NCBI GenBank assembly: GCA_029220445.1
Contig: GCA_029220445.1_3666.1
Strand: one strand, 5' to 3'
Source of the DNA: a phage
DNA length: 64,000 nucleotides
Of this stretch, positions 3,963-41,056 are shown one piece after another; position 1 is the stretch's first letter, and each line of letters starts with the position of its first letter. Below the pieces are notes generated by a model. The model worked only from the letters and a program-made list of their open reading frames with translations, made no database searches and was not told the origin of the DNA. The position numbers and the translations under genes were made by a program.

Positions 3963-4424
3963 CTACTTAAACAACAGTTCAAAATAGTGCAAAATTAACA
4001 GAAGTTGAATTACGCCTAGCACAACAGCAAGTATGTTAATCTTAGAATCAAAAAACTTCTTAACTTTTACCCTAAAAGGTTCCTTAATGTCCTTTACGAT
4101 CCTATCTATAGATGACCTCATATCCCTGATTACCATCCTGAACATTAAAGACGGATGATCCCTCTCTGTAACGGAATCGAAAACATACTCTCTTTGATCA
4201 CAAGGGCCGCCAGCTCTGCGTATTAACCTCTCCACAGAGACCTCGTACGACACACCTGTAACGTAATCATCTATGACAAGGAGTGACGGGTCTTTATCGT
4301 CCAAGGGTATCAAAGTTATCTTTCCAGATTTTGTTAAAATTTCTCCTTTTTCAAGTAAGGTGTACCAATGCTCTCTGCCAAGACTGTTGAGGCACGTTTT
4401 TACATATTTAACAAACATCGTCAC
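3963..4424 (-). CDS. hypothetical protein with C-terminal transmembrane anchor
   Basis: 153-aa ORF ending ILAVVLGVIQLLLILHYFELLFK. Confidence 0.45.
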   Translation of the reverse strand: MTMFVKYVKTCLNSLGREHWYTLLEKGEILTKSGKITLIPLDDKDPSLLVIDDYVTGVSYEVSVERLIRRAGGPCDQREYVFDSVTERDHPSLMFRMVIRDMRSSIDRIVKDIKEPFRVKVKKFFDSKINILAVVLGVIQLLLILHYFELLFK

Positions 4425-4606
4425 CCCTCATCGCACGTCTGATATAACCACTCTATAAAATCTTGATACCATTCGCCCTCTGAGCGCTCCGTAGGCCAAT
4501 AATCTTCACCCTCTCGTGCATTAAAATCTGAGTATTCAACTTTCCACTCCTTTACCAGCTCGTGGAGAAGGTTTTCAGCCTGCTCTAAAGATTTATTTTT
4601 TGCCAT
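4421..4606 (-). CDS. hypothetical protein
   Basis: track ORF 4421-4624 begins at TTG; ATG at 4606 (MAKNKSLEQ...) follows AAGGAGA. Confidence 0.4.
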   Translation of the reverse strand: MAKNKSLEQAENLLHELVKEWKVEYSDFNAREGEDYWPTERSEGEWYQDFIEWLYQTCDEG

Positions 4607-4825
4607 TGCTGTCTCCTTTTTCAAGATAGTTATACATCAGAACTGCACCACCTAAGATGGCTACCAGTAACAATACCCCAGATAGCATCTCAATAAACAT
4701 GGCTTGAAACACTGGAAGGTCTCCCTAAATTAACGCACCATTTTAAATACATGCTCTTTTCCCATAAAGGTGCCTGGCTAAGATCTGCGTAGAACGCAAT
4801 CTCTTTAAGAACAGTATAAACAGTT

Positions 4826-5062
4826 TTAGGTGCGGTCTCCATCCCTACTCTCCTTTTTCTCCTTACGGATATTCTTGTAGTAATCAACTAGGCACATTAT
4901 TACAATGAAGATAACAATAGGCCAAAAAGGTGCAGCAGTGATGATGGTGATAAAATCATCAAACTCCACCTTTCGTCTAGCTAAGATGCATACACCTGTC
5001 AAGAATACCGCTGTTATAACGGCTATTACCAGGTAACCTATTAGCACAGCATTTATACTCAT
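4826..5062 (-). CDS. small integral membrane protein
   Basis: 78 aa with two long hydrophobic stretches and a basic C-terminus. Confidence 0.4.
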   Translation of the reverse strand: MSINAVLIGYLVIAVITAVFLTGVCILARRKVEFDDFITIITAAPFWPIVIFIVIMCLVDYYKNIRKEKKESRDGDRT

Positions 5063-27231: not shown

Positions 27232-27525
27232 TCAAGACTTTTTAGTCTTTCTTGGAGAGCTTTTTGTTGATCTTTTCCTTTTGTGGTAGATTCCAAGTGC
27301 AGCGTTTTCTTGGGCGCACGTTTTAACAGTTCTCAGACAAGAACTTTCAGCTTTAGGCAGGTTTAACTCCCACCAACCAAGCCAGTAAAGTTCTGATTCA
27401 GACAACTGCTCAGATTCAGCCTTCCGATACAAGGTTCGCATACCTCTGATGATATCGTCCAGAGGTGTATCGAATACAAAAGCTGTCTTATCGAATTTCT
27501 CTTTTACAGGTCTCTTAGCCATCAA
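27232..27525 (-). CDS. hypothetical basic protein
   Basis: 97-aa ORF with lysine/arginine-rich C-terminus. Confidence 0.4.
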   Translation of the reverse strand: MMAKRPVKEKFDKTAFVFDTPLDDIIRGMRTLYRKAESEQLSESELYWLGWWELNLPKAESSCLRTVKTCAQENAALGIYHKRKRSTKSSPRKTKKS

Positions 27526-27979
27526 GGTAACCCTCTATCCACGAAAAGTCAGTCTTCCATTCTGGAACTTTACTAAGCTCACGCCACTCTGCAAAGCAGT
27601 CTCGGTAATACGCCTCTGCCATACCTTTGGTGATCTTATTCACCTTAGCCAACTGATTAACTGCCTGAGCATACTTTCCACGGATATTTGCTAACCCAGG
27701 ATGCACCGATGTGTGACAATCTGGGCACAACGCTATCAGTCCGACAAGCCGGATCACTCCCTCTTCGAAAGTGTAAAGTTCATGGCACTCCACTGGATGT
27801 TTGCTACCTTTACCGCCGCACACCTCACAAGTGTAGTTGGCTTCTCTATAGCACTTCTTACGGATCTTATCCCACTCACTCTTCTTCACAGCGTTTCGGA
27901 GGTTATTATACCAAGCTGTTTCTGGGATCAATTGCACAATAAGCCTGCGTTCAGACTTCATTAAACGTCCGTCTTCCAC
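27515..27979 (-). CDS. HNH endonuclease-like protein
   Basis: CEVCGG...VECHELY...ALCPDCHTSVH fits the HNH CxxC...H...LCxxCHxxxH arrangement. Confidence 0.55.
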   Translation of the reverse strand: MEDGRLMKSERRLIVQLIPETAWYNNLRNAVKKSEWDKIRKKCYREANYTCEVCGGKGSKHPVECHELYTFEEGVIRLVGLIALCPDCHTSVHPGLANIRGKYAQAVNQLAKVNKITKGMAEAYYRDCFAEWRELSKVPEWKTDFSWIEGYLDG

Positions 27980-27988
27980 GTATCCTCC

Positions 27989-28195
27989 TCATTCAAAGAA
28001 ATGGGTGCGAGGGCAGGAACCTGCCTCACCTTGTTTCACAAGTTCGTAGAGCTCACCTTGGCTTGTCTCATAAAGGCAAATACGTTTACCATTGTCCCGA
28101 TATACATCGACAAGATACGCTGTTTCACCTGCAAACACGACACCACAGGCCAGACATGCTGCCATGAACAAAATTGCCAACAGAAAATCTTTCAT
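27989..28195 (-). CDS. small secreted or membrane-anchored protein
   Basis: N-terminal signal-like segment MKDFLLAILFMAACLACGVVFAGE in a 68-aa ORF just downstream of the endolysin. Confidence 0.45.
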   Translation of the reverse strand: MKDFLLAILFMAACLACGVVFAGETAYLVDVYRDNGKRICLYETSQGELYELVKQGEAGSCPRTHFFE

Positions 28196-28258
28196 GGTTA
28201 AACCCTCCTAAACATTTTATGAGGTAAAAATACCACGTCCGTGTGGTTATGTCAATGA

Positions 28259-28729
28259 TCAATCAAGGACAACACCGCCTGCCTTTTTAAACACCTCGAT
28301 CAACTTCTCAATCTTCTGTTCATGCTGACCATATCCAGCACCAGGTAACGAAGCCCAGCGGGAACGGCATTTATGGATAGCCTCGTGGATACGCCCTTCG
28401 TCAATGTCAGCGAGAGCCTTGCACTCACGGATCAGTTGCAACGCAATCTTGTCCTGACTGGCAGGGCCAAAATCTGGTAATCCTAACTGTTTCATATAGT
28501 GTTTAGCAAACTTCTCCAAAACCTGGTAACGCCCAGCAGCGGAGGAGGTAAGTTTAGCATTTAGCTTAACGTAAACACCGGGGTGCTTGCTGTAATCGCT
28601 GAACAGCTTGCCGCCGACTATGACATCGTACCCCCGATCCTTGGTAGGTTGTCTACCATTATCTGTGCCTTCCGAATATGCGATCATATCCAAGAAAGCT
28701 TTTCGTTGAACATTTTTATCAAGTTTCAT
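28259..28729 (-). CDS. endolysin, lambda R-type lytic transglycosylase
   Basis: near-identical blocks to phage lambda R: NVQRKAFLDMIAYSEGTDNGRQ, GYDVIVGG, WASLPGAGYGQ. Confidence 0.9.
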   Translation of the reverse strand: MKLDKNVQRKAFLDMIAYSEGTDNGRQPTKDRGYDVIVGGKLFSDYSKHPGVYVKLNAKLTSSAAGRYQVLEKFAKHYMKQLGLPDFGPASQDKIALQLIRECKALADIDEGRIHEAIHKCRSRWASLPGAGYGQHEQKIEKLIEVFKKAGGVVLD

Positions 28730-28852
28730 TTTTCATACTCTCCAGTTTACTCATAACTAACCCGATCAACAACACTGCATAGTGTGGTTATGTAGGTGCC
28801 AATTGAAAACCATCATTCAATTGGTTACCGTTACCTACTAGACCTTCCTACA

Positions 28853-30118
28853 TTATTCCAGCACCTCCCAAGTTTCTGGATTAAGATTGCGGAATGCGAT
28901 ACCCACAGGGAATTGAGGCACACCGTCCACCGTACGCTGTTGGAATTTTATCGTGATAAATTTGCCAACATATGAGCAGCATTTTTCGTAGTTCCTTACG
29001 GCAAAAGTGCCTTTCATTTTGCATTTGCATTGTGTCCCATCTTTCTCTTCGCAGATAAGAACACCTTCCCCGTTTTTATCTTTTTCAACACCGATCACTT
29101 TTGCTTCAACATCGGTGAACAGTTTCCACTTGAGCAGATCAGTAGAGCGTTGACCGTATTCGTAGGTGCCACGGAAGTTACGAATAATAGATCCTTCATA
29201 ACCTTCCTGCATGTACTGTCCGATGGAGTTGCGAACCTCTTCCTCGTTGTAGGCGATCTTGAAAGGAACACCCTCGACGTTGGTGAGATGGTTAACTTCA
29301 CAATAATCAATAACTTCCTGAAGATTTGTGGCCCGATCTTCCCAGCGATGGATGCAATCAGGAACATCGAACACCATCAGTTTCAGGTCATAAGAGCAGT
29401 AACCTCCATACCGATCAGAATCACGGACAGGTTCTTCATAAACCGGATGATCAACCTTGTTGAAGTCTTTCCATGTCTCCTCTCCGGCCTTGATCGCTTT
29501 CTCACGGCGTTTTATGTCTGCCATGAAATCCTTATCAATTTCTTTCTCAATGTCTTCCAGACTACGCCATTTCTTAACGAGGGAGGTTATTTTCTGCAAC
29601 GGTAAACCGTGAATGTAGAACTCCCCATCAAATTCATCAAAGCCTGTTTCTTCATGCAGGTCTTGTAGCTCACGGAGGATGTTACCTTTCGGCTCATACA
29701 CTTTGTTACCGCGAGAGATGAATTTAGGTACACCGTCTACGAATTTGACAAAGCAACGGTTCCCGTCAAGTTTGTGTTGCAGGTGGCATGGATACACAAT
29801 AGCGTGTGGTTTTTTCGAAGCATCTTGCGCCAGCATAGGTGAAATGTCAATGGCCTCAAGGTCTTCGACATTTTCTTTGTAACCCAGCCGGACTTGCTTT
29901 TCCCATTTAGACTGCGCCTCTAAAACAGCTTGTTCTTCTGCTGTAGTTTCGTTGGATCGCCCGATGTTTTTGGCTTCACATTTTGTGGTTTTTGATTGTA
30001 CAGCGCCACCAACCCTGCCGAACACAACAATAACCTCGTTGCCGCTTGTATCTACTTTCCACATCTGGATGGACCCGTCTTTATTGCGAGCATAAAGTGT
30101 TGTTTTGAATTGATGCAT
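28853..30118 (-). CDS. ATP-dependent DNA ligase
   Basis: adenylation motif I HKLDGNR (KxDGxR), EGSIIRN (motif IV) and LLKWK (motif V). Confidence 0.8.
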   Translation of the reverse strand: MHQFKTTLYARNKDGSIQMWKVDTSGNEVIVVFGRVGGAVQSKTTKCEAKNIGRSNETTAEEQAVLEAQSKWEKQVRLGYKENVEDLEAIDISPMLAQDASKKPHAIVYPCHLQHKLDGNRCFVKFVDGVPKFISRGNKVYEPKGNILRELQDLHEETGFDEFDGEFYIHGLPLQKITSLVKKWRSLEDIEKEIDKDFMADIKRREKAIKAGEETWKDFNKVDHPVYEEPVRDSDRYGGYCSYDLKLMVFDVPDCIHRWEDRATNLQEVIDYCEVNHLTNVEGVPFKIAYNEEEVRNSIGQYMQEGYEGSIIRNFRGTYEYGQRSTDLLKWKLFTDVEAKVIGVEKDKNGEGVLICEEKDGTQCKCKMKGTFAVRNYEKCCSYVGKFITIKFQQRTVDGVPQFPVGIAFRNLNPETWEVLE

Positions 30119-30387
30119 TACTCTACCTCTTCCTTAAAAATTTTAAACATCTCTTCTTTACTCATTACCAACCAGTCACCCATAAAATCAACAAGCCAAT
30201 CACCCTGGTACAAGACTAGGTTACCAAACGGCTCTACAAGCTCACACATACGACGAAGATCTCTGGTCCGAACAGGTGACGATGTAAACACACCTGTATC
30301 AATCCACCGTTGCAGATCAGATACTGATGAAGAGCTTCCGTCAAACTGGTGTGCTTCTACAGGTTTAGCAAGATTAAATAACGGCAT
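30118..30387 (-). CDS. hypothetical protein
   Basis: 89-aa ORF. Confidence 0.4.
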   Translation of the reverse strand: MPLFNLAKPVEAHQFDGSSSSVSDLQRWIDTGVFTSSPVRTRDLRRMCELVEPFGNLVLYQGDWLVDFMGDWLVMSKEEMFKIFKEEVE

Positions 30388-30682
30388 TGCAGTCCTCCTT
30401 CTCTAATAGGTCTTTTATCGGGTAAACAAGCAGGTGTGGATCGTAATAATTTATAGTTTTATTCTGCCACACTATGAACTTAATTACAACTAAATTTACC
30501 ACATCTTTATCTCCATGTAGTCCAACACACAGATTTGTCCATATTTTGTGGTTGAATACTTTGCTGTCGATGTAGATCTTAGTGTCAAACTTATCCTCTA
30601 TCCTACCTATAAATTTAACCAATTCTTTCATCTGATCTCCAAACACAGCATCGTTTTCAAGATCTCTGGAGTGCTTGTACAT
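30374..30682 (-). CDS. hypothetical protein
   Basis: 102-aa ORF. Confidence 0.4.
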   Translation of the reverse strand: MYKHSRDLENDAVFGDQMKELVKFIGRIEDKFDTKIYIDSKVFNHKIWTNLCVGLHGDKDVVNLVVIKFIVWQNKTINYYDPHLLVYPIKDLLEKEDCNAVI

Positions 30683-30745
30683 AACTTTCTACCTCACTTG
30701 CATACTTTCCGAAACAAGTAAAGCCGGGTAATCCCGGCTATGTTG

Positions 30746-31459
30746 TTAAATATACTCTGTTACATCCTTGAAGCTCGAAGGCTTCATAATCTTACCTTTA
30801 TTGTCAAGGAATATGATAACTTTATTACCGTTGTAGAATTCTTCCTTGGCAACAAAACCTTCATATCGACCATCAAAGCGTCGTTCAAGATCTTTAATCT
30901 CCAACTCGATTAGTTGTTCAGCAGGCATATCTGCACTGGCACCGTGTGAATACCGTAGATGGTTGACCCGTGCAAACTTGCTGTCATTCGATTTGAGAAC
31001 CTTACGCATCATCCCGCACACATCGCCGCGAAGCTGGAACAGCAAAGCTGTTGACAACTCTGCTAAGCGGTAAGCAGACGCTCTTTGCTTAGAGGTGTTT
31101 TTCGCAGCGATCAGTGTATCATAGAACTCGCCGATCTTGAACTTAATACCTCGCGGATTATCAAACAGGTTTGACCACTTTTCGTGATTATCATTAACAA
31201 GATAAGCGGCATAACTTGTGACAACGTGAAGATCGCAGGCCTCTTTTAGCAGGTGATCTCCACCATCACCTTTCTCCAGCTCTTCCAAAACCTCATTGAA
31301 CTCTTCCTCAATGAAGCTAAGCTGTAATTCGAATGGTGTGTATGATTTTTTCACTTTAGCTGCCACACGGTTCCAGTTTTCCACCCAATTGGCAGACCAA
31401 AGGTAGTTTTCAGGCTGAGACAGTTTTTCCAGGTTGTCGATCAGTTTAGTATTCAGCAT
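30746..31459 (-). CDS. hypothetical protein, possibly MazG-like nucleotide pyrophosphohydrolase
   Basis: EEEFNEVLEELEKGD...LLKEACDLHVV resembles the MazG ExxE...ExxD metal-binding helix pair; weak. Confidence 0.4.
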   Translation of the reverse strand: MLNTKLIDNLEKLSQPENYLWSANWVENWNRVAAKVKKSYTPFELQLSFIEEEFNEVLEELEKGDGGDHLLKEACDLHVVTSYAAYLVNDNHEKWSNLFDNPRGIKFKIGEFYDTLIAAKNTSKQRASAYRLAELSTALLFQLRGDVCGMMRKVLKSNDSKFARVNHLRYSHGASADMPAEQLIELEIKDLERRFDGRYEGFVAKEEFYNGNKVIIFLDNKGKIMKPSSFKDVTEYI

Positions 31460-31472
31460 TAAAGGTCTCCTT

Positions 31473-32234
31473 TTAAAGTTCCATAAAGTTTTCTACAGTT
31501 TCAATAAATGCTTTATCAGAGAAAGCGTCAACAGCACCGTTAAACCATACAGGGATCCCGCGATCCTCATATTGATAAAGGTCGCTACGTGAAATGCCAC
31601 TTCCATCTGCACTCTGCGAATCATACTTGTTTACAATCAGCAGTTTTGTTCCTTTACAAGTAGCAGGAAACAATTCCCAGTTAAAATTAATAACTGTGTT
31701 AGAACAACCCACTAGGATCACCATATCATTGCTGGTGAGAGATGTCAACAGGTCATACATGTCTGTATACTTAGGAGCAACCTCACCGAAGAACACTACA
31801 TTGGGCTTAACCCAAGTATACTTGCCTGTATCTACCTCCGTGTATCCGATATTTTTAATTACATCATTACCTTCAGCATCTTCGTAGGTGATTTCAGGCA
31901 AATACCCGTGGACATGTAAAATATCTTCATGTTTTACACCAGCACGCTCCAGCAAATCATCTACATTGGTGGTAAGGTTGATCACACGACCAGACCAGCG
32001 GGAATACCACTCAGCGATCCGAAGATGTGCAAGGTTAGGATCAACACTGCCCAGAGCTACACGACGTGCATTGTAAAAGTCATGCACCTTATAGTAGTTC
32101 TTGGCAAAGGTGTGGATGTTGCACACCTCATCGATGCTGAAATTCTCCCACATTGCAGTGCTACCAGATCGGAAGGTGGGAATACCAGATTCTGCGCTCA
32201 AACCAGCACCAGAAATAACAATAAGTCGTCGCAT
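31473..32234 (-). CDS. Sir2-family (sirtuin-like) NAD-dependent enzyme
   Basis: GAGLSAESGIPTFR, TTNVDDLLERAG, catalytic HG (LHVHGYL), VFFGE; lacks the CxxC zinc ribbon. Confidence 0.85.
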   Translation of the reverse strand: MRRLIVISGAGLSAESGIPTFRSGSTAMWENFSIDEVCNIHTFAKNYYKVHDFYNARRVALGSVDPNLAHLRIAEWYSRWSGRVINLTTNVDDLLERAGVKHEDILHVHGYLPEITYEDAEGNDVIKNIGYTEVDTGKYTWVKPNVVFFGEVAPKYTDMYDLLTSLTSNDMVILVGCSNTVINFNWELFPATCKGTKLLIVNKYDSQSADGSGISRSDLYQYEDRGIPVWFNGAVDAFSDKAFIETVENFMEL

Positions 32235-32242
32235 AAATGTCC

Positions 32243-32593
32243 TTAGTAGATGTTTTGTTTGATCTCTATTCCAAACTTCTTGAATGAGTCAGCAGCAAGC
32301 ATAAATTTACGAGCTGCCGATGGATTAGAAGTATGCACGAAAATAATCACGTTGTCAATAAGTGGTGGCTTTCCGAATACAAGTTTCTCCTCTAGCGCAG
32401 AGAAGCAGTCGTACCCTTCAAGAACTTCACCTAGATCATTGTCAAAATACCATTCAGATACGCGTCTGTAGAGCTTTCTCTTATCATTAAGAAAATCCAT
32501 AAATTCAGAAGAATTCTTTAGCCACAGAGCGTCTGGGAGTCCATAATCTGACGGATCTCTAAAATCATCAAGCCACACAATCCACTTCTTCAT
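32243..32593 (-). CDS. hypothetical protein with CheY-like receiver (flavodoxin-fold) resemblance
   Basis: ATG at 32593 forms an ATGA overlap with the RNA ligase stop; IVWLDDF and VSEWYFDNDLGEV resemble receiver-domain blocks, with Glu at the phospho-acceptor position. Confidence 0.4.
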   Translation of the reverse strand: MKKWIVWLDDFRDPSDYGLPDALWLKNSSEFMDFLNDKRKLYRRVSEWYFDNDLGEVLEGYDCFSALEEKLVFGKPPLIDNVIIFVHTSNPSAARKFMLAADSFKKFGIEIKQNIY

Positions 32594-33525
32594 TGCATAT
32601 AGTCCTCGTTGTGGAAATAGCAGTCCAGTATCTCGCGACGCTCCTGCTCTAATAAGCAATTCCACACATCTTCTGTATAGTTGCTACGAATAAATTTTAC
32701 CATACCGTAAAACTCCTCGTCAACACGTTTAAAAATATCGTCATCCCAAATCTTCCATGCTTTACCTCTCATTACGGCCTTCCGTGCCAAATAGTATGGA
32801 GACTTGATCTTCAGCTGCAGGTCATAAGGGCAGTAAGGCTTACGGATCATATACCCTTCGCCCCTTGTTTCTGCAGCTAATTCTTTTGCATAGCTGAACG
32901 GGATTTCACGCACAGTGTGAGGACGTTTTGCACCAAGGTATTTGGCAATCCCATCTAAAGCTGCTTCTGGTAGCATTATTCCAGAATCATTATATCTGCA
33001 ACCTATCAAATATGCGCCATGGTCTTCTTGAACAATATGCGGATCTGAAGGGTGACAAATTTCAAACATGAATGTCATGTTTTCATTGCCCATAACCTTC
33101 TTGATAAGATCTAAATTACCACATTGCTCTTGGATGGTTTCCTTTGCAAGGTTACAATATGGAGAATCAAGAGACCCGGTTGTTGAGAACAATAGTTCAC
33201 CTTTATGAGATGATACCACACCGAGGAATCCGTTCTTTTTCTCTACCGCAGTAACAAGTTTACTGTCCGGTAGGTTGGTGGAGTTTTCTCCTAAGTTGAA
33301 TACTTTTGTGAAAGGCCATGCCACAACATTCCCCTCATTGCCAACAACAATACCTCGGCACTCCAGTAAACGCGGAGACAAATGCCACAGATTGTTGTAG
33401 AATACTTTTCTGGCATATTTATAGATCTTTAATCCAAGATCTGGATAATACCGACTGGTTACAAGACCTTTGTCTACTAGGTCATCTGCATTAAAATACT
33501 TCATCATACGTTCCTCATTTGTCAT
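32590..33525 (-). CDS. RNA ligase (Rnl2-like nucleotidyltransferase)
   Basis: EKKNGFLGVV (motif I KxNG), FMFEI (motif IV), GEGYMIRKPYCPYDLQLKIKS matching T4 Rnl2 EGYVLKP...IKCK. Confidence 0.75.
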   Translation of the reverse strand: MTNEERMMKYFNADDLVDKGLVTSRYYPDLGLKIYKYARKVFYNNLWHLSPRLLECRGIVVGNEGNVVAWPFTKVFNLGENSTNLPDSKLVTAVEKKNGFLGVVSSHKGELLFSTTGSLDSPYCNLAKETIQEQCGNLDLIKKVMGNENMTFMFEICHPSDPHIVQEDHGAYLIGCRYNDSGIMLPEAALDGIAKYLGAKRPHTVREIPFSYAKELAAETRGEGYMIRKPYCPYDLQLKIKSPYYLARKAVMRGKAWKIWDDDIFKRVDEEFYGMVKFIRSNYTEDVWNCLLEQERREILDCYFHNEDYMQ

Positions 33526-33568
33526 TTTGTCAGTCTATCCTGCCACACAAATAACCTAGTGTCAACAC

Positions 33569-33597
33569 TTGAAATTAACAAAACAGTTAGGTATACT
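33569..33597 (+). promoter_or_regulatory. sigma70-type promoter TTGAAA-N17-TATACT
   Basis: hexamers at 33569-33574 and 33592-33597 in the divergent intergenic region; GGAGGA SD and ATG at 33626 follow. Confidence 0.5.
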
Positions 33598-33625
33598 ATC
33601 ATTAAAATTAAAACGGAGGATTGCT

Positions 33626-34036
33626 ATGTCTAAAATGCTATATATCGTGCGTGGTCTGCCAGGGTCTGGCAAATCAACACTGGCAAATGCGCTATCTTTA
33701 GAAGGTCTGTATCCACATTTTGAGAACGACATGTTCTGGTATGACGATGACGGCAATTACAACTGGGATGCAAGTAAAGTAACACTCGCAGCAAAATGGT
33801 GCAAAGATAACGTAGAAGATATGATGAGTATGGGATACGACCGTATCGTGGTAAGTAATACGTTTACAAAAGAAAAACATGTGCAGGAATATGTTGACAT
33901 GGCAATCAGTCATGGGTATAGTTATACCGTGATCGTGGTTGAAAACCGCCACGGTAATAAAAGCATTCATGATGTTCCAGACAAGGTTGTGGATCGTATG
34001 GAACGCCAGCTTAAAAACTGCATTAAACTTAAATGA
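33626..34036 (+). CDS. P-loop polynucleotide 5'-kinase-like protein
   Basis: MSKMLYIVRGLPGSGKSTLA resembles the N-terminus of the T4 Pnk kinase domain; start taken at ATG 33626 rather than the track's TTG 33569. Confidence 0.65.
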   Translation: MSKMLYIVRGLPGSGKSTLANALSLEGLYPHFENDMFWYDDDGNYNWDASKVTLAAKWCKDNVEDMMSMGYDRIVVSNTFTKEKHVQEYVDMAISHGYSYTVIVVENRHGNKSIHDVPDKVVDRMERQLKNCIKLK

Positions 34037-34043
34037 GGAATGT

Positions 34044-34598
34044 ATGAAATACTTTGTAACAAGCGACACACACTTTCTCCACCAGCGGGTCATGGAGTTT
34101 GATTCATGTCAAAAACACAGATCTCAGTATGATCACAATCTTGACAGTATGAATGCGGGAATCATCGCCGAGTGGAACTCTGTTGTGTCACCTGCAGACA
34201 CTGTGTTCCACTTGGGAGATATTGCGTGCACTAATGATAAGAATATCAACAAATTACTTCCAGATATTCTAGATATGTTGAACGGACATATTATTCTTGT
34301 TCGTGGCAACCATGACACAAGGACGACTGTCAGAATTATGAAAGAGTTCTATCACGAGGTTGTAGATTATTACGAGCTTCGCCACAACAAGAATTTGATC
34401 TGTATGAGCCATTACCAATTTGCAAAGTGGAACAGAAAGCCTCACGGATCAGTCCAACTGTTCGGTCATGCTCACGGAACCACACAACAGTTGTTTGGCA
34501 GGCAGCTTGATGTCGGTTGGGATGTGTGGGGGAGACTCTTACCATTAGAAGAGGCATACCGTACTGCAATGAGTTTTGATATTGACAGCAGGGAGTAA
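34044..34598 (+). CDS. calcineurin-like metallophosphoesterase (putative 2',3'/3'-phosphatase)
   Basis: MKYFVTSDTHFLH, HLGDIA, LVRGNHDT, GHAH metallophosphatase motifs; start at ATG 34044 with GAGGAA SD. Confidence 0.8.
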   Translation: MKYFVTSDTHFLHQRVMEFDSCQKHRSQYDHNLDSMNAGIIAEWNSVVSPADTVFHLGDIACTNDKNINKLLPDILDMLNGHIILVRGNHDTRTTVRIMKEFYHEVVDYYELRHNKNLICMSHYQFAKWNRKPHGSVQLFGHAHGTTQQLFGRQLDVGWDVWGRLLPLEEAYRTAMSFDIDSRE

Positions 34599-34645
34599 TC
34601 CCTGCTATTTTAAAGAAAATTGCCACACAAGGAGAATCAGGAGAT

Positions 34646-34996
34646 ATGAAAGATGGGGATAAGCTGCTATATCTTAAAGTCCCCCTTGAAATACTGTCTA
34701 TGTCAAAAGTTTTGAATGACACAACTGGGGAGGTTGTTGTTCTTGACTTGTATGACAAGATCGTATACTGCTACCTGCACAACTGGTATAAACTTGGAGG
34801 AAATTCACGCTTCACACCCAGCACAAGGAAAATTGCAGCAGATGTTGGGATAAAGAAAACAAAAGCAGCAGCGTGCGTTAAAACTTTAGAATGTGCAGGA
34901 TTGGTTGAAACATCCACACAGGGGAGAGGTAAAAGATGCACATTTTCCAAAGTTTTGCCACCAGAAAAAGTTATTCGAATGTCAACAACTGGTTAG
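34646..34996 (+). CDS. winged-helix DNA-binding protein
   Basis: STRKIAADVGIKKTKAAACVKTLECAGLVE helix-turn-helix segment; gene ends 76 bp before the operator array. Confidence 0.5.
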   Translation: MKDGDKLLYLKVPLEILSMSKVLNDTTGEVVVLDLYDKIVYCYLHNWYKLGGNSRFTPSTRKIAADVGIKKTKAAACVKTLECAGLVETSTQGRGKRCTFSKVLPPEKVIRMSTTG

Positions 34997-35071
34997 ACCA
35001 GTAAAAACTTAAATATCTGTACTATAAGGATTCGTATGTTTTATGTTCGCTCTGGAACAGAGGTTAGTAAC

Positions 35072-35152
35072 TGTCCGTGATACGGACACTACTGTCCGTC
35101 ACGCGGACACATCTGCCCGTAATACGGACACTAACTGTCCGTGATACGGACA
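35072..35152. repeat. four phased 17-bp palindromic sites TGTCCGT-N3-ACGGACA (operator or iteron array)
   Basis: copies at 35072-35088, 35093-35109, 35114-35130, 35136-35152; copies 1 and 4 identical, 2 and 3 each one mismatch; spacing 21, 21, 22 bp. Confidence 0.7.
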
Positions 35153-35639
35153 CATAAAGAATATAACTAAAATAACTAAATAATAAAAAATAAAAGATCT
35201 AGTACTTATGGTACTAAAGTACATATACTTAACTTATGTAGAATATACTAGATCCTAAGTACCATGTTTTAAATTTATTACTTACTGTAGGTAGTGTCGG
35301 CCCTTCATTGGCACTCGCCTACGAGGGGCGAGATGCCGGGCCTCCGTAGTGCACACATGCAGGTCTGTTAACATGTGTGGGAGCGAAGCGATAGCGCAGG
35401 CCAAAGGCCGAGCACTAATGTGGACCACCGACGAAAGCTTGCCAGCGCCGTAAGGAGTCGGTTGAGAGCCTCCCGCGCGAGTTTGGATAAAGTTTATGTG
35501 TGGAAACGGACAATGAGGCCCCTAAATCGCTCCACAGCCATATAAACTATACCAAGTAAGGCAATCGCACCAGTTTGATAGAAAAGCTCGTTACAAAGCG
35601 ATACAGTGAGTTTTTCTATAACTTGAAGAGGAGGCAGCT

Positions 35640-36218
35640 ATGAGTCCACGCAAAGATGACCGTGAAAAGATTGCAAAACGTTATCAGAATGAAGAACAGA
35701 TGGAGAAAACTTTCAAGTGGAAGCCAGGTTTCCAGCGTAATCATTCTAACGCTCGTGATCGTAAGCATCCGGATAAGTGGTTAACACCGCCAAATGATGG
35801 CATGCAGGTTGGTGATGAGAAGGAGCTGTCACCTGGAAAAGATGGCAACTACATTCGCACTAAGGAAGCAGGTCCAAAGGATGACAGCTATCTTGTAGAT
35901 AAGGTTCTTGATGGTATTGATGTAGATGTTGACACTGCACGAAACCTTTTTCTTGGTTGGTATCGTACAGGGTTTTTCGACATCAAGGCGATTCGTCGTG
36001 TTTGTGATATTAAAAAGTCTGCCTATGATGATGACTCTCTACATCGCACTCTGAGACAATACTCAGAGAGATACGGTCATCCAGTTATCACTCTTGACGA
36101 TATTAACGAAGTGATGTATCATGCAGAGGTTGTTGCAGGTAGATTCGGTGATGCATATCTCGGTATTCTTTCTGCAAAAGATGAGGTGATGTTAAATAAA
36201 ATTTACTATGAACGCTGA
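35640..36218 (+). CDS. hypothetical protein
   Basis: 192-aa ORF with GAGGAGG SD. Confidence 0.5.
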   Translation: MSPRKDDREKIAKRYQNEEQMEKTFKWKPGFQRNHSNARDRKHPDKWLTPPNDGMQVGDEKELSPGKDGNYIRTKEAGPKDDSYLVDKVLDGIDVDVDTARNLFLGWYRTGFFDIKAIRRVCDIKKSAYDDDSLHRTLRQYSERYGHPVITLDDINEVMYHAEVVAGRFGDAYLGILSAKDEVMLNKIYYER

Positions 36219-36228
36219 GGAGCGCTTA

Positions 36229-36417
36229 ATGAACAACCCGGTAGCAAAGAACTGTAATAAGTTCAACAAGTCTGCAATTCACACTGACAGGAAAAAGAGC
36301 TGGTCTCCTGACATTGACGAGGAGCTTGAGAGTTACTTTGAAGACCTGGTCACTAATGCAGATGAGGTTGCGATTAAAGAATACGCAGACAGGAAGGATA
36401 AGGCCGGAATCTGTTGA
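36229..36417 (+). CDS. hypothetical acidic small protein
   Basis: ATG at 36229 with GAGGAG SD 7 nt upstream; the track's 36208 start overlaps the previous gene. Confidence 0.4.
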   Translation: MNNPVAKNCNKFNKSAIHTDRKKSWSPDIDEELESYFEDLVTNADEVAIKEYADRKDKAGIC

Positions 36418-36442
36418 CAAAAATAGTGTTACCTGATAAGAT
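36414..36442 (+). promoter_or_regulatory. sigma70-type promoter TTGACA-N17-TAAGAT
   Basis: consensus -35 with exact 17-bp spacer upstream of gene 36494. Confidence 0.5.
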
Positions 36443-36493
36443 CTGCAATATGATGTGATGCAATTTTAACTTACGAGGTCTACAGGTAATGCT

Positions 36494-36736
36494 ATGTTTA
36501 AGGTTAAGCTCGTTTTTCGTTCCATGAATGAGGATTATTTAGAAGATGAAGGTGAATTTCGTGCACTGGATGATGCAATAGATTTTGCCAACGACTTAGC
36601 TTGTATGAATACAGGTTATGGGCTATGTTGTTGGGATGGTGGTGTTCAGATCGGTGATAGCAAGATCTTCTACTTCTACCCTGAGCCTGATAACAAACAA
36701 ATTAAGTATGTTTTATTTATTTGTGCTTTACAATGA
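36494..36736 (+). CDS. hypothetical protein
   Basis: 80-aa ORF. Confidence 0.45.
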   Translation: MFKVKLVFRSMNEDYLEDEGEFRALDDAIDFANDLACMNTGYGLCCWDGGVQIGDSKIFYFYPEPDNKQIKYVLFICALQ

Positions 36737-36755
36737 GGTTGTTTTCGTGTATCAT
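36727..36755 (+). promoter_or_regulatory. sigma70-type promoter TTTACA-N17-TATCAT
   Basis: hexamers at 36727-36732 and 36750-36755; would start a transcript entering the GC-rich island. Confidence 0.45.
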
Positions 36756-36759
36756 GATT

Positions 36760-37020
36760 AATATCCAATTTAAAGATGAATTTGATGGCTTTATCTCTGG
36801 ATGCTTTGAAACAGGGTTCGGAGAAGGCTGAGTTCCCCTTAGAGGGCTTGATAGTGCACCACACTTAAAATGGTAGGGGCAGCCAGCACATGACGATGTG
36901 ACCCCAGCCAACCTGTAACAAGGTCGAGCCGAAGCGCGGGTAATAGGCCTCTGGTAACCCACTTGTTGGGTCTTGCTGGTCCAGGACGCTGGACAAGTCG
37001 CAGGGAATACCACCCTGCGG
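36760..37020 (+). ncRNA. candidate structured non-coding RNA (GC-rich ORF-free island)
   Basis: about 260 nt with GC content clearly above the flanks, several perfect hairpins (e.g. CGCAGGG-7nt-CCCTGCG at 36999-37019, GTCCAG-GACG-CTGGAC), own upstream promoter; the only ORF (36717-37058 minus) is low-complexity. Confidence 0.3.
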
Positions 37021-37025
37021 CGAAC

Positions 37026-37054
37026 TTGACAATCAGTATTTGCTATGATAAAAT
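37026..37054 (+). promoter_or_regulatory. sigma70-type promoter TTGACA-N17-TAAAAT
   Basis: consensus -35, 17-bp spacer, AT-rich -10; GGAGGAA SD and ATG 37083 follow. Confidence 0.55.
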
Positions 37055-37082
37055 CCACCTATCACGTGATAATGGAGGAAAC

Positions 37083-37421
37083 ATGGCGGATACAACTAAA
37101 AAGCGTCGCCGTAGAGGCAGACCTCTGAAAGAGGAGTCCAACGCCATTCAGCTAGAGAAGAACATCCTTGATATGAAGGAATCTTTTATAGCGATGGTTC
37201 CAGAAGCTCACAAAGTTTTAAGAGAGCTGATGTTGGACCCGAAAACCAAACAAAATATTCGTCAAAGCATTGCAGAGTATGTTCTTGATAAGGCAGACCG
37301 AATGCAGGAAGAATATGATGAGATGTTTGGTGAAGAGGAAGAGGTGGTAGTGGAAGAGGCTGAAAAACCAGCACCTTTTATGCCATTTACTACAGAAATA
37401 CAGCCTGTTAGCAATAGCTAA
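37083..37421 (+). CDS. hypothetical protein with AT-hook-like basic N-terminus
   Basis: MADTTKKRRRRGRPLKEE contains an RGRP AT-hook core; acidic C-terminal half. Confidence 0.5.
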   Translation: MADTTKKRRRRGRPLKEESNAIQLEKNILDMKESFIAMVPEAHKVLRELMLDPKTKQNIRQSIAEYVLDKADRMQEEYDEMFGEEEEVVVEEAEKPAPFMPFTTEIQPVSNS

Positions 37422-37430
37422 AATATTTTC

Positions 37431-37459
37431 TTGACAAACTTTGCTTAACAGTGTAATAT
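37431..37459 (+). promoter_or_regulatory. sigma70-type promoter TTGACA-N17-TAATAT for the tRNA cluster
   Basis: consensus -35 at 37431-37436, -10 at 37454-37459, about 60 bp upstream of the first tRNA. Confidence 0.55.
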
Positions 37460-37517
37460 TGTAAACATGGTCTCCCACCTTTTCTGGCGGCTAAGGTGTA
37501 AAAGAAAGCCACCCAGT

Positions 37518-37592
37518 GCCCTGTTAGCTTAGTGGATAAAGCAGCGGCCTTCTAAGCCGTTGACACTGGTTCGAGTCCAGTACGGGGTGCCA
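37518..37592 (+). tRNA. tRNA-Arg (anticodon TCT)
   Basis: manual fold: 7-bp acceptor, D arm GCTT/AAGC, anticodon loop CTTCTAA with U33, T loop TTCGAGT, encoded CCA. Confidence 0.8.
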
Positions 37593-37596
37593 AATT

Positions 37597-37683: not shown

Positions 37684-37797
37684 AATTTATATTTTTAGAT
37701 GCATAAATAATACAGATAATGGCATTGATATTTATCGTCGTTTATACTAGTCACTAACTGCTCGAAAATCAGTGTCATTATCAGTATAATTTATAAA

Positions 37798-38083: not shown

Positions 38084-38090
38084 CCTTTTT

Positions 38091-38166: not shown

Positions 38167-38167
38167 A

Positions 38168-38751: not shown

Positions 38752-39150
38752 ATGATTTCAGTTTTAACATGGCTGAGTAGGTATAGAGGGATCATAAAAG
38801 GTTTAGTTTTTGCAGCTGCGATAGGTACAGCTTATCTTGGAGCCGTGTATTGGTTTAACTCTAAGCTTAATGATGCCTACCAAGAAGGTGTGTCAGCAAC
38901 AGAGTTAAAGTGGGAACGGATCCTTGATCAGCAACAAAAGCAGGCCGACAAAATTAAAATGGGCCACGCAGAGGAGGTTAAAAACCTTGAAAAATCCCTT
39001 TCTGACCTGCAGGATAAATTAAATATGGCTGAGAAGGCAGGTAAAGAAAAGCAGATTATTTACCTCCAATCACCTGAGGGTAAGAAGTCAACACTCCCTG
39101 ATCAGCTTATAGATATTTATAATGAGAGTATTAATCAGGAGGGTCGATGA
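38752..39150 (+). CDS. i-spanin (Rz-like inner-membrane spanin)
   Basis: N-terminal transmembrane helix followed by a charged coiled-coil-like region; stop overlaps the next start (ATGA). Confidence 0.6.
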   Translation: MISVLTWLSRYRGIIKGLVFAAAIGTAYLGAVYWFNSKLNDAYQEGVSATELKWERILDQQQKQADKIKMGHAEEVKNLEKSLSDLQDKLNMAEKAGKEKQIIYLQSPEGKKSTLPDQLIDIYNESINQEGR

Positions 39151-39434
39151 GAGTTGCTGCACTGTTTATTGTGTGCTTGTTATTGTGTGGGTGTGCAACC
39201 AGCGTTGAGAGAGAATACAAGATTGACCCTCCAGATGTAGGAAGGTTGATTGTTAAACCCCCGGAAGGTGCCATGAAACCACCTGCTAAAGCTATACCTT
39301 TAAAGAAAGGTGCGCCAGATGCGGTGAATTCTGGCATTATGAGGGATAATAATCTGTCTTGTAGCAATGATAGAGCTAAATTGATCATTTTGCAAGACTA
39401 TATTAGAACACTGTTTCCAAAGGAGAGAGGTTAA
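39147..39434 (+). CDS. o-spanin (Rz1-like outer-membrane lipoprotein)
   Basis: signal peptide with lipobox-like LLLCGC, proline-rich mature region, second conserved Cys near the C-terminus. Confidence 0.6.
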   Translation: MRVAALFIVCLLLCGCATSVEREYKIDPPDVGRLIVKPPEGAMKPPAKAIPLKKGAPDAVNSGIMRDNNLSCSNDRAKLIILQDYIRTLFPKERG

Positions 39435-40981
39435 TGTCTAAGATTTACGGACCGTGTTCTGAAAAGCAGAAGATGATCCTAGAAAACGATGCAGATATTT
39501 TGGTAATCGGCGGTGCCGCAGGGTCTGGCAAGTCGTTCCTCTTGCAGTTGATGCCGCTTAAAATTATTGATGACCCCCACAGCTCTGTGGTTATGTTCCG
39601 AAGAACAACCCCGCAGTTGGAAGGTGAGGGTGGACTATGGCCTAAAGCAGTAGCTATTTATAGTGATCTGCCTGAAAACATTAAGCCAAAGTTTAGAGAG
39701 AAGGATCATAAGTTCATTTTTCCACGGTTTGATCCGAGCACTGGCAAGTGGGATAGAAGCAAAAAGGGAGCTGTTGTAAAATACTGCCACATGGAGTATG
39801 TACAAGATAAGCTTAACCATCAGGGGCTTGAGTACACCATGGTTTGCTTCGATGAGGGCACGCAGTTCGAATGGGAGCAGATAGACTATCTGATGTCTCG
39901 TCTGCGATCTCAGTCAAAGTATCCATCAAGAATGGTTATCAGCTGTAACCCCGATTCAGAACACATGCTTGCCAAACTGGTTAGATGGTGGTTGGACGAT
40001 GAAGGGTATCCAGATCCGGAGAAATGCGGTAAGAAAAGATATTTTATCCGACGCGACGGTGAATTTATATGGGGAGACTCTAAAGAAGAGTTGATAGAGA
40101 AATACACCACGGTTAACGGACTGGGTGTGGAGATCAAGCCAAGACCGTTGTCATTCTCGTTTATAGGCGCAACAATATTCGATAATCCTGTCTGCTTAAG
40201 AGACAACCCAGAATACCTTGCTTTCCTTGAAGGTCTGCCGGAACTGGAAAAAGCTCAACTTCTTCATGGTAACTGGTTTGCAAAGCCTGAGGGTGCAAAC
40301 TATTTTCAAAGATCTTTCCTTCGTGATGCCGATAGAGTACCCCTTGGATCAGTATCTTGCAGGGCATGGGATAAGGCAGGAACCGAGAGAACTTCCGGTA
40401 ATAAATTTCCTGACTTTACCGCCAGTATTAAGGTAAGTAAAGATAGCGACGGCTTTTATTACCTGTCCGGTGATTATTGTCCTGAGAACGTGGATGACGG
40501 GAGGTATTCCACAGGTCTGGAAGGCAAGTTCTGTAAAAAGGCTGGTGAACGAGATGTGATCATCAGGAAACAGGCGCAGTTTGATGGTGATGATTGCATA
40601 ATCGTATTCTCTGTGGACCCTGGTCAGGCAGGTAAGAGTGAGTTCTTAACCTCATCCAGATCCTTGCTCGCCGAAGGGTTCAGGGTTGAAGAAGACCCAA
40701 TGCCTTCCAACAAATCTAAACTGACAAGGTTCTCACCTTTTGCCAATCTTGCACAACAAGGAATGGTGAGGATTGTAAAATCCAGTTTCCATCCTGATAC
40801 TCTGGAAGCATTTCTGACTGAACTTGAAAAATTCAACGGGGAAAGATCAACATTTAACAGAAAAGACGACTGGGCAGACTGTGTAGCTTCTGCGATTAAT
40901 TTCCTGGAGAAAGAGGAGGTAGCACTTCCTTGTGTGATTCCATCAATCTCATCACCTTCTATGTTCAAGCGTTTTATCTAA
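39434..40981 (+). CDS. terminase large subunit
   Basis: Walker A VIGGAAGSGKS near the N-terminus, 515 aa, immediately upstream of the portal gene. Confidence 0.85.
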   Translation: MSKIYGPCSEKQKMILENDADILVIGGAAGSGKSFLLQLMPLKIIDDPHSSVVMFRRTTPQLEGEGGLWPKAVAIYSDLPENIKPKFREKDHKFIFPRFDPSTGKWDRSKKGAVVKYCHMEYVQDKLNHQGLEYTMVCFDEGTQFEWEQIDYLMSRLRSQSKYPSRMVISCNPDSEHMLAKLVRWWLDDEGYPDPEKCGKKRYFIRRDGEFIWGDSKEELIEKYTTVNGLGVEIKPRPLSFSFIGATIFDNPVCLRDNPEYLAFLEGLPELEKAQLLHGNWFAKPEGANYFQRSFLRDADRVPLGSVSCRAWDKAGTERTSGNKFPDFTASIKVSKDSDGFYYLSGDYCPENVDDGRYSTGLEGKFCKKAGERDVIIRKQAQFDGDDCIIVFSVDPGQAGKSEFLTSSRSLLAEGFRVEEDPMPSNKSKLTRFSPFANLAQQGMVRIVKSSFHPDTLEAFLTELEKFNGERSTFNRKDDWADCVASAINFLEKEEVALPCVIPSISSPSMFKRFI

Positions 40982-41030: not shown

Positions 41031-41056
41031 TAGCCCTCTAACACGAGGGCTATTTT
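41031..41056 (+). terminator. hairpin with T tract (terminator or leader attenuator)
   Basis: 8-bp stem TAGCCCTC/GAGGGCTA with 6-nt loop followed by TTTTGTT, downstream of the terminase stop and of the candidate promoter. Confidence 0.4.

What the first reader, a model, noticed from the sequence alone, without database searches (positions are those of the whole stretch)
27989..28729. Lysis functions are dispersed: endolysin in the minus-strand early block, spanins fused to the front of the morphogenesis operon, no obvious holin
The lambda-R-type transglycosylase (28259-28729) is about 10 kb away from, and on the opposite strand to, the i-spanin/o-spanin pair (38752-39434), which sits directly upstream of the large terminase. 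No canonical holin lies beside either; the only nearby candidate is the 68-aa signal-peptide protein at 27989-28195. No small terminase subunit is recognisable next to the large terminase.
Basis: partly seen in the sequence, partly recalled or inferred. Interest (0 to 1): 0.45.

Follow-up and report, generated by a model that had tools for sequence, protein, structure and literature searches.

The report
Scattered lysis genes of an rV5-like phage
The window is an rV5-like coliphage whose cell-bursting genes (endolysin, spanins, a likely holin) sit at three separate places instead of one cassette, an arrangement that is real but was already published for this phage group.

Summary
The window is a Vequintavirus, 99% identical to phage rV5. 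A soluble lambda-R-type endolysin lies at 28259-28729 (-). A separate i-spanin/o-spanin pair lies at 38752-39434 (+), about 10 kb away on the other strand, and is translationally coupled to the large terminase. No membrane protein of holin type lies beside either, and no small terminase is recognisable by profile search.

None of this is new. Kropinski et al. [quoted passage not shown] Buttimer et al. 2020 noted that the rV5 spanins sit next to the large terminase, outside any cassette. [quoted passage not shown]

It has a variable, cleavable-looking signal peptide and a conserved acidic domain of about 45 aa with two invariant cysteines. Related phages keep it where no endolysin is adjacent.

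The holin remains experimentally unproven. Verdict: real, ordinary, already known.

The parts
28259..28729 (-). Soluble lambda-R-type endolysin (lytic transglycosylase family), 156 aa, with no signal or SAR domain. Equivalent to rV5 ORF89 (rv5_gp085).
   Evidence: Matches PDB 1AM7/3D3D at E about 1e-56 with 62% identity and the catalytic Glu conserved. Matches phrog_90 endolysin. rV5 annotation. The 98%-identical LysECP26 lyses EDTA-treated cells (PMC9728275).
27989..28195 (-). 68-aa secreted small protein (phrog_4641): signal peptide plus a conserved 2-Cys beta domain of about 45 aa. Function unknown; not a holin.
   Evidence: Synteny without an endolysin.
28227..28255 (-). Sigma-70-like promoter (TTGACA-17-TATTTT with TG) in front of the 68-aa gene. 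Equivalent to rV5 P90.
   Evidence: This is a consensus match only.
38752..39150 (+). i-spanin (Rz-like), 132 aa, with an N-terminal TMD and a charged periplasmic domain.
   Evidence: phrog_4297 at E = 1.5e-49. TMD at residues 17-35. rV5 gp068. The rv5 spanin family is listed in PMC6139136.
39147..39434 (+). o-spanin (Rz1-like) lipoprotein, 95 aa, with lipobox LLCG|C16 and a proline-rich mature part.
   Evidence: phrog_1267 at E = 1.8e-22. Lipobox and 9 Pro in 80 residues. ATGA overlap with the i-spanin gene and TAATG overlap with TerL.
39434..40981 (+). Large terminase subunit, uninterrupted in this window.
   Evidence: Terminase_6N at 4.6e-20 and Terminase_6C. phrog_979 at 3.4e-208. In rV5 the gene is split by introns and an HNH gene.
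4826..5062 (-). 78-aa protein with two TMDs and a Lys/Arg-rich C-terminal tail. Equivalent to rV5 ORF129 (rv5_gp124), the published putative class II holin, 23 kb from the endolysin in the same transcription direction.
   Evidence: Kropinski 2013, PMC3606486. No match to a known holin family.
4593..4712 (-). 39-aa protein with one TMD (rV5 ORF131) in the same small membrane-protein cluster. Role unknown.
3963..4424 (-). 153-aa ORF as listed here (rV5 annotates 151 aa) with a C-terminal TMD (rV5 ORF133). Detected in virions by mass spectrometry.
   Evidence: PMC3606486.
38702..38734 (+). Hairpin followed by a U6 run (terminator-like), 18 nt upstream of the i-spanin start codon.
   Evidence: dG -16.9 kcal/mol, z = -2.06.
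41031..41052 (+). Terminator-like hairpin after TerL, annotated as a rho-independent terminator in rV5.

Best explanation
This is the known, unlinked lysis system of rV5-like phages (Vequintavirus). It works by the standard three steps for Gram-negative hosts.

1. A soluble lambda-R-type transglycosylase (28259-28729) accumulates in the cytoplasm. It has no export signal, so it needs a hole-forming holin.
2. The most likely holin is the 78-aa two-TMD protein ORF129 (4826-5062), encoded 23 kb away in the same leftward transcription unit.
3. A two-component spanin (38752-39434), translationally coupled to the large terminase at the head of the morphogenesis unit, disrupts the outer membrane.

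The 68-aa gene next to the endolysin encodes a Sec-exported small periplasmic protein. It is not part of hole formation.

Shown here: the identity of the endolysin and spanins, their positions and coupling, and the architecture of the 68-aa and 78-aa proteins. Inferred: that ORF129 is the holin, and the timing of expression.
For: - The window is 99.1% identical to rV5 over 27500-40000 and carries the same genes.
- Endolysin: 1AM7 at E = 8.8e-57, 62% identity, catalytic Glu kept, no hydrophobic segment. The 98%-identical LysECP26 is muralytic on outer-membrane-permeabilised cells and cannot cross the outer membrane.
- Spanins: PHROG Rz-like families, TMD, lipobox, proline-rich mature part, ATGA and TAATG overlaps. 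The rv5 spanin family is catalogued.
- ORF129: two hydrophobic stretches (KD 2.59 and 2.53) and a C-terminal tail with 7 Lys/Arg in 19 residues. TMD2 and the loop are nearly invariant across the family. Kropinski 2013 found it to be the only rV5 protein that both TMHMM and Phobius call as two-TMD, and named it the putative holin.
- 68-aa protein: variable signal peptide and a conserved 2-Cys acidic domain. Its synteny is independent of any endolysin.
- Published statements of the same arrangement.
Against: - ORF129 has no similarity to any holin family in Pfam, PHROGs or NCBIfam, and no homologues outside Vequintavirus-like contigs.
- ORF129 is not adjacent to any lysis gene, has no dual-start motif, and its topology is ambiguous by charge count (loop 3 K/R, tail 7 K/R).
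- rV5 carries other small membrane proteins outside the window and a second, signal-peptide-bearing SleB-like hydrolase, gp002.
- No expression or genetic data exist.
Confidence: 0.55

Rival explanations
1. The holin is a different small membrane protein, either outside this window or another member of the 3963-5062 membrane-protein cluster. ORF129 would then have some other membrane role such as superinfection exclusion or host takeover.
For: A hydropathy scan of the rest of rV5 finds several small annotated CDSs with one or two TMDs, for example ORF183 (123 aa, two TMDs), ORF155, ORF200, ORF190 and ORF31. None has a family assignment. The LL12 authors could not positively identify a holin. 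BME3 authors name two small class-II-like proteins of 61 and 81 aa as candidates in a more distant relative.
Against: Kropinski 2013 reports ORF129 as the only protein that both TMHMM and Phobius call as two-TMD. None of the alternatives lies next to a lysis gene either, and most lack a basic C-terminal tail.
Confidence: 0.3
2. One reading: the 68-aa protein at 27989-28195 is the holin, or an antiholin-like lysis regulator, working with the adjacent endolysin.
For: It lies directly downstream of the endolysin, has one hydrophobic N-terminal segment, and is 95-100% conserved within Vequintavirus. Its architecture (N-terminal hydrophobic segment plus a small periplasmic domain) loosely recalls the T4 RI antiholin; that comparison rests on my own knowledge.
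Against: The hydrophobic segment is the least conserved part and ends in an AxA-type cleavage motif in the family. The conserved domain is acidic (8 D/E against 5 K/R), has two invariant cysteines and is predicted all-beta. There is no fold match to any lysis protein. Homologues in ChuuTotoro and SSBI34 have no adjacent endolysin. It has its own sigma-70-like promoter.
Confidence: 0.07
3. Lysis is driven mainly by the Sec- or SAR-exported SleB-like hydrolase next to rIIA (rV5 gp002, outside the window). That enzyme needs at most a pinholin. The lambda-R-type enzyme would be a later, accessory acquisition.
For: gp002 matches Hydrolase_2 at E = 2.1e-19 and has an N-terminal hydrophobic signal. 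It is shared across Vequintavirinae genera. In Certrevirus and Henunavirus a two-TMD protein sits directly downstream of it. The R-type gene has slightly higher GC than its flanks and is bracketed by a 12-nt direct repeat.
Against: In rV5 the two-TMD slot downstream of gp002 is empty, because gp002 overlaps rIIA. SleB-like homologues also occur in T5-like phages, where, from my own knowledge, the endolysin is a different enzyme. The R-type enzyme is strictly conserved in the genus and experimentally muralytic.
Confidence: 0.08

Closest known systems
Escherichia phage rV5 lysis genes: ORF89 lysin, ORF129 putative holin, ORF67/66 spanins (Kropinski et al. 2013, PMC3606486; RefSeq NC_011041)
   Same: The DNA is 99% identical with the same genes in the same order. 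The dispersed arrangement and the holin candidate are the same.
   Different: The large terminase gene is uninterrupted here, whereas rV5 has two introns and an HNH gene. Parts of the window are closer to FFH2 or PDX.
Phage T4 unlinked lysis genes (e, t, pseT.3/pseT.2, rI)
   Same: Endolysin, holin and spanin genes are scattered across a large virulent myovirus genome. The spanin genes are separate ORFs that overlap only at stop/start. rIIA and rIIB are present.
   Different: The endolysin is lambda-R type, not T4 E type. The candidate holin has two TMDs and 78 aa, not the one-TMD T type. No RI homologue was found.
Phage lambda S-R-Rz/Rz1 cassette
   Same: The endolysin is 62% identical to lambda R, it is soluble and therefore holin-dependent, and the spanin is two-component.
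   Different: The genes are not in a cassette. The spanin genes are separated rather than embedded. The candidate holin is unrelated to S105 and would be class II rather than class I.
Spanins next to the terminase in SP6, K1-5, VP4, and in Vequintavirinae CB7 and PVP-SE1
   Same: The spanin pair lies directly upstream of the large terminase and outside any lysis cassette. This is stated for rV5, CB7 and PVP-SE1 in PMC7344957.
   Different: SP6 and VP4 are podoviruses with unrelated spanin families.
SleB-like hydrolase plus two-TMD protein pair in Certrevirus CB7 and Henunavirus Hena1
   Same: The phages belong to the same subfamily, and rV5 keeps the SleB-like hydrolase next to rIIA.
   Different: The adjacent two-TMD gene is absent in rV5. 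The Hena1 protein shows no similarity to ORF129.

Membership tests
Lambda-R-type endolysin (lytic transglycosylase, lambda lysozyme fold) | Full-length sequence homology to lambda R | tested here: met
   1AM7 at E = 8.8e-57, 62% identity over 151 of 156 residues. Pfam and NCBIfam gave no hit in the copies used.
Lambda-R-type endolysin (lytic transglycosylase, lambda lysozyme fold) | Catalytic glutamate in the SEGT motif | tested here: met
   YSEGT aligns with WSEGT of lambda R. Glu20 is noted for LysECP26.
Lambda-R-type endolysin (lytic transglycosylase, lambda lysozyme fold) | Cytoplasmic and soluble, with no signal or SAR domain, so holin-dependent | tested here: met
   No 19-residue window reaches KD 1.6.
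Lambda-R-type endolysin (lytic transglycosylase, lambda lysozyme fold) | Muralytic activity, with transglycosylase rather than hydrolase chemistry | not testable with these tools
   Lytic activity is shown for the 98%-identical LysECP26 (PMC9728275). The reaction chemistry was not determined.
Two-component spanin (Rz/Rz1 type) | i-spanin is a type II inner-membrane protein with one N-terminal TMD and a periplasmic domain | tested here: met
   TMD at residues 17-35, 3 K/R before it, and a 97-aa charged C-terminal domain. phrog_4297 at E = 1.5e-49.
Two-component spanin (Rz/Rz1 type) | o-spanin is an outer-membrane lipoprotein with a lipobox, a Cys and a short proline-rich mature part | tested here: met
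   LLCG|C16, no Asp at +2, mature part of 80 aa with 9 Pro and one further Cys. phrog_1267 at E = 1.8e-22.
Two-component spanin (Rz/Rz1 type) | The two genes are adjacent or overlapping | tested here: met
   ATGA overlap. Classed as the 'separated' architecture in PMC6139136.
Two-component spanin (Rz/Rz1 type) | Helical or coiled-coil periplasmic domain of the i-spanin | not tested
   No coiled-coil or structure prediction was run.
Two-component spanin (Rz/Rz1 type) | Required for outer-membrane disruption | not testable with these tools
   Needs complementation of lambda Rz/Rz1 amber mutants.
Class II holin (candidate: ORF129, 4826-5062) | Small protein with two TMDs | tested here: met
   78 aa with KD peaks of 2.59 and 2.53. 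TMHMM and Phobius agreement is reported in PMC3606486.
Class II holin (candidate: ORF129, 4826-5062) | Hydrophilic, highly charged, basic C-terminal tail | tested here: met
   DYYKNIRKEKKESRDGDRT has 7 K/R and 5 D/E and is conserved in the family.
Class II holin (candidate: ORF129, 4826-5062) | N-in, C-in topology | tested here: inconclusive
   The termini carry 7 K/R and the loop 3 K/R (4 in some homologues). No dedicated topology predictor was available.
Class II holin (candidate: ORF129, 4826-5062) | Homology to a described holin family | tested here: not met
   No holin family in Pfam, PHROGs or NCBIfam. Exhaustive HMMER finds only Vequintavirus-like relatives.
Class II holin (candidate: ORF129, 4826-5062) | Linkage to an endolysin or spanin gene | tested here: not met
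   It lies 23 kb from the endolysin. The upstream ORF128, labelled 'putative glycosidase' in one record, has no support for that label.
Class II holin (candidate: ORF129, 4826-5062) | Dual-start (holin/antiholin) motif | tested here: not met
   There is a single Met at the N-terminus (MSIN...) and no second start before TMD1.
Class II holin (candidate: ORF129, 4826-5062) | Timed, lethal hole formation that releases the endolysin | not testable with these tools
   Needs induction and complementation experiments.
Holin of any class (candidate: 68-aa protein, 27989-28195) | A TMD retained in the mature protein and conserved | tested here: not met
   The hydrophobic segment is the most variable part and ends in AxA-type sites in 42 homologues. 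Actual cleavage was not shown.
Holin of any class (candidate: 68-aa protein, 27989-28195) | Charged cytoplasmic C-terminus | tested here: not met
   The C-terminal domain is acidic, has two invariant cysteines and is predicted as a beta domain, which fits the periplasm.
Holin of any class (candidate: 68-aa protein, 27989-28195) | Linkage to the endolysin kept in relatives | tested here: not met
   ChuuTotoro and SSBI34 keep the gene without an adjacent endolysin.
Small terminase subunit | Profile match of an ORF near TerL | tested here: not met
   No TerS family in PHROGs, Pfam or NCBIfam for ORFs between 33569 and 38646. The only hit is a P-loop-only match at E = 0.0015.

The most novel reading that the evidence does not exclude
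Vequintaviruses may have no holin of a conventional kind. ORF129 would then do something else. Release or control of the soluble R-type endolysin would involve a so-far undescribed factor. One candidate is the small secreted 2-Cys beta-domain protein encoded right after the endolysin, which is present across Vequintavirinae genera and 95-100% conserved within Vequintavirus. It could act as a periplasmic lysis or superinfection regulator.
Probability: 0.08. Interest if true: 0.55.

Novelty: already known. Interest (0 to 1): 0.12.

Why it matters
It matters little beyond annotation. The dispersed layout, the spanin-terminase adjacency and the holin candidate are all in print for rV5 and its relatives.

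The one real open point is that no holin has been demonstrated experimentally for this widely used group of therapeutic and biocontrol coliphages. The in-window candidate ORF129 belongs to no known holin family. A simple induction and complementation experiment would settle this and would add a new holin family if positive.

Tried and rejected
1. ORF128 (5094-5627), directly upstream of ORF129, is labelled 'putative glycosidase' in phage CarlMeissner. If true, it would make a hidden endolysin-holin cassette. It is not supported. There is no Pfam hit and no PDB sequence hit. Only 3 homologue clusters exist. The AF2 model has pLDDT 58, and the Foldseek PDB search found nothing below E = 0.1 and nothing lysozyme-like.

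2. Wider homologues of ORF129 were sought to find linkage with lysis genes. Only Vequintavirus-like contigs turned up. The most distant homologue, at 33% identity, sits in the same syntenic block.

3. The 68-aa protein was compared with known structures. The moderate-confidence AF2 model (pLDDT 77) is a small beta domain. Its best PDB matches are OB/SH3-like ribosomal L2 fragments at E of 0.018 or worse, and BFVD returns only uncharacterised secreted phage proteins. The afdb50 library was unavailable.

4. A lipoprotein reading of the 68-aa protein was rejected because the cysteines in its signal region are not conserved.

5. I looked for a shared late-promoter motif upstream of the three lysis loci. 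T4-type TATAAATA does not sit upstream of any of them. Structural genes carry sigma-70-like extended -10 promoters. Promoter counts are not above chance.

6. A TerS search with PHROGs, Pfam and NCBIfam on neighbouring ORFs gave nothing.

7. The two-TMD protein downstream of the SleB-like hydrolase in Hena1 was compared with ORF129 and showed no similarity.

Full report
**What the window is.** Megablast of 27500-40000 finds Escherichia phage V5/rV5 (NC_011041) at 99.1% identity over 100% of the query, plus more than 100 other Vequintavirus genomes. Other parts of the window are equally close to FFH2 and PDX. The window corresponds to roughly 35-100 kb of the 138-kb rV5 genome. The rV5 RefSeq annotation already names the genes in question:
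- endolysin rv5_gp085 (ORF89)
- a hypothetical protein that 'contains transmembrane domain', rv5_gp086 (ORF90)
- two 'Rz-like spanin' genes, rv5_gp068 and rv5_gp067 (ORF67, ORF66)
- the large terminase

**Check of the observation.** All ORFs are present at the stated coordinates.
- The 156-aa product of 28259-28729 (-) matches lambda lysozyme 1AM7/3D3D at E about 1e-56. It is 62% identical over 151 residues and keeps the catalytic Glu in the SEGT motif. It also hits PHROG endolysin phrog_90.
- The endolysin has no hydrophobic segment, so it is a soluble enzyme that depends on a holin.
- A 98%-identical orthologue, LysECP26, has been purified. It lyses EDTA-permeabilised Gram-negative cells (PMC9728275).
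- The i-spanin (38752-39150) has one N-terminal TMD and a 97-aa charged C-terminal domain.
- The o-spanin (39147-39434) has the lipobox LLCG|C16 and a proline-rich 80-aa mature part. Both hit PHROG 'Rz-like spanin' families at 1.5e-49 and 1.8e-22.
- The junctions are ATGA (i-spanin/o-spanin) and TAATG (o-spanin/TerL). The three genes are therefore translationally coupled, not fused.
- TerL (39434-40981) carries Terminase_6N and Terminase_6C.
- The endolysin and spanins are 10 kb apart on opposite strands.
- No ORF next to either has the build of a holin. No ORF between 33569 and 38646 matches a small-terminase profile.

**It is already published.**
- Kropinski et al. 2013 (PMC3606486) describe Gp89 as the lysin and report no holin homologue. 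Both TMHMM and Phobius called two TMDs in only one protein, the 78-residue gp129 with a Lys/Arg-rich C-terminus. [quoted passage not shown]
- Buttimer et al. [quoted passage not shown] They also note the same arrangement in SP6 and VP4.
- The rv5 spanin family is catalogued among the 'separated' architectures in Kongari et al. 2018.

- A hydropathy scan of all ORFs in the window singles out 4826-5062 (-). It encodes 78 aa with two strong hydrophobic stretches (KD 2.59 and 2.53), a loop RRKVEFDD and a tail DYYKNIRKEKKESRDGDRT. It has a good Shine-Dalgarno sequence. This is rV5 ORF129, rv5_gp124.
- Within the family, TMD2 and the loop are nearly invariant, while TMD1 varies more.
- The protein belongs to no described holin family.
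- Exhaustive searches find relatives only in Vequintavirus-like contigs. The most distant one, at 33% identity, keeps the same neighbours: PhoH, ClpP, an ORF128-like gene and an ORF133-like gene. Comparative context therefore adds no link to lysis.
- ORF129 heads a small cluster with two further membrane proteins. One has 39 aa and one TMD. The other is listed here as 153 aa (151 aa in the rV5 annotation), has a C-terminal TMD and was seen in virions by mass spectrometry.
- I regard ORF129 as the best candidate, but with only about even odds.

**The 68-aa protein is not a plausible holin.** A profile search found 44 clusters, all 63-90 aa and mostly on phage-sized contigs of 130-150 kb. The alignment shows three features:
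- a freely varying n-h-c signal peptide ending in AxA-type sites (AHA|G, ASA|S, VFA|G)
- a conserved domain of about 45 aa (T..L.D.YRD...C.Y...G....G.C) with two invariant cysteines
- a net acidic charge in that domain

AlphaFold2 gives a small all-beta domain at pLDDT 77. It has no significant structural neighbour in the PDB, and BFVD returns only uncharacterised secreted phage proteins. In Serratia phage ChuuTotoro and Salmonella phage SSBI34 the homologue keeps its place between DNA ligase and the exonuclease. Its neighbours there are a membrane protein, a pyrophosphohydrolase and small unknown proteins, not an endolysin. The adjacency to the R-type gene in Vequintavirus therefore looks incidental. 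The gene also has its own sigma-70-like promoter. Its function remains unknown. My best reading is a Sec-exported periplasmic protein.

**A lead that failed.** ORF128 (5094-5627), directly upstream of ORF129, is called 'putative glycosidase' in one BASEL genome. That would have made a hidden cassette. No sequence or structural evidence supports it.

**Wider picture from the reference genome.**
- Outside the window, rV5 has a second muralytic gene, gp002. It is a SleB-like Hydrolase_2 protein (E = 2.1e-19) with an N-terminal signal-like segment, and it overlaps rIIA.
- In Henunavirus Hena1 a 77-aa two-TMD protein lies between this hydrolase and rIIA. Buttimer et al. report the same for Certrevirus.
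- That slot is empty in rV5, and the Hena1 protein is unrelated to ORF129.
- The R-type gene has slightly higher GC than its flanks and is bracketed by an exact 12-nt direct repeat. This would fit a later acquisition, but I did not pursue it.
- Several other small membrane proteins exist outside the window, so the holin could lie there.

**Mechanism.** The most likely mechanism is standard three-step lysis with unlinked genes, as in T4. The soluble transglycosylase waits in the cytoplasm. A holin, probably ORF129, opens the inner membrane. The Rz/Rz1-type spanin then removes the outer membrane. The identities and positions are shown. The holin assignment and all timing are inferred. 'Early block' is unproven, because both divergent units carry sigma-70-like promoters. 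A terminator-like hairpin sits just upstream of the i-spanin gene.

**Verdict.** The finding is a correct description of a known, ordinary feature of rV5-like phages. The only open point, experimental proof of the holin, is a modest one.

Noticed in passing
window 35068-35195: Four 21-22-bp iterons, each containing the palindrome TGTCCGTgatACGGACA, are followed by an AT-rich run. They lie in a 643-bp non-coding gap right after the wHTH gene 34646-34996 (phrog_12838 'replication initiation protein'). This is a candidate iteron origin or operator array. A repeat_region is annotated at the same place in phage naswa.
   Followed up: partly
window 28241-28252 and 28782-28793 (- strand): An exact 12-nt direct repeat, ACATAACCACAC, brackets the endolysin ORF. 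Four matches at up to 1 mismatch were found against 0.33 expected. The downstream copy overlaps the promoter-like site of the 68-aa gene. It may be a trace of how the lambda-like endolysin gene was acquired.
   Followed up: partly
window 38702-38734 (+): A hairpin plus U6 run (dG -16.9 kcal/mol, z = -2.06) lies 18 nt before the i-spanin start. It is not annotated in rV5. If it is a terminator, the spanin-TerL unit needs its own promoter or read-through.
   Followed up: partly
window 39434-40981: The large terminase gene is uninterrupted here (515 aa). In rV5 and LL12 it is split by introns and an HNH homing endonuclease gene.
   Followed up: no
window 42552-43127 (+): The ORF labelled 'DNA methyltransferase' in RefSeq rV5 (gp063) and in PHROG phrog_1530 matches Peptidase_S78_2 (XkdF-type prohead serine protease) at E = 3.8e-17. 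It sits directly after the portal gene. The label is probably wrong and the gene is more likely the head maturation protease.
   Followed up: partly
window 37987-38085 (+): ARAGORN reports a 99-nt tRNA-like gene with a four-base anticodon (atcc) inside the tRNA cluster. It is absent from the rV5 annotation and listed as 'tRNA-OTHER' in phage naswa.
   Followed up: no
window 3963-5062 (-): A cluster of three small membrane proteins: 78 aa with two TMDs, 39 aa with one TMD, and a 153-aa ORF (151 aa in the rV5 annotation) with a C-terminal TMD. [quoted passage not shown]
   Followed up: partly
L005 (rV5 1980-2480, outside the window): A second cell-wall hydrolase (SleB-like Hydrolase_2, E = 2.1e-19) has an N-terminal signal-like segment and overlaps rIIA. 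Related genera have a two-TMD gene between the two, for example Hena1 at L015:2011-2244.
   Followed up: partly
database records MG0656xx ('Campylobacter phage C15, A12a, C2 ...'): About 18 unannotated GenBank records named as Campylobacter jejuni phages are 97-99.8% identical to this E. coli Vequintavirus. They are probably mislabelled or come from contaminated lysates.
   Followed up: no
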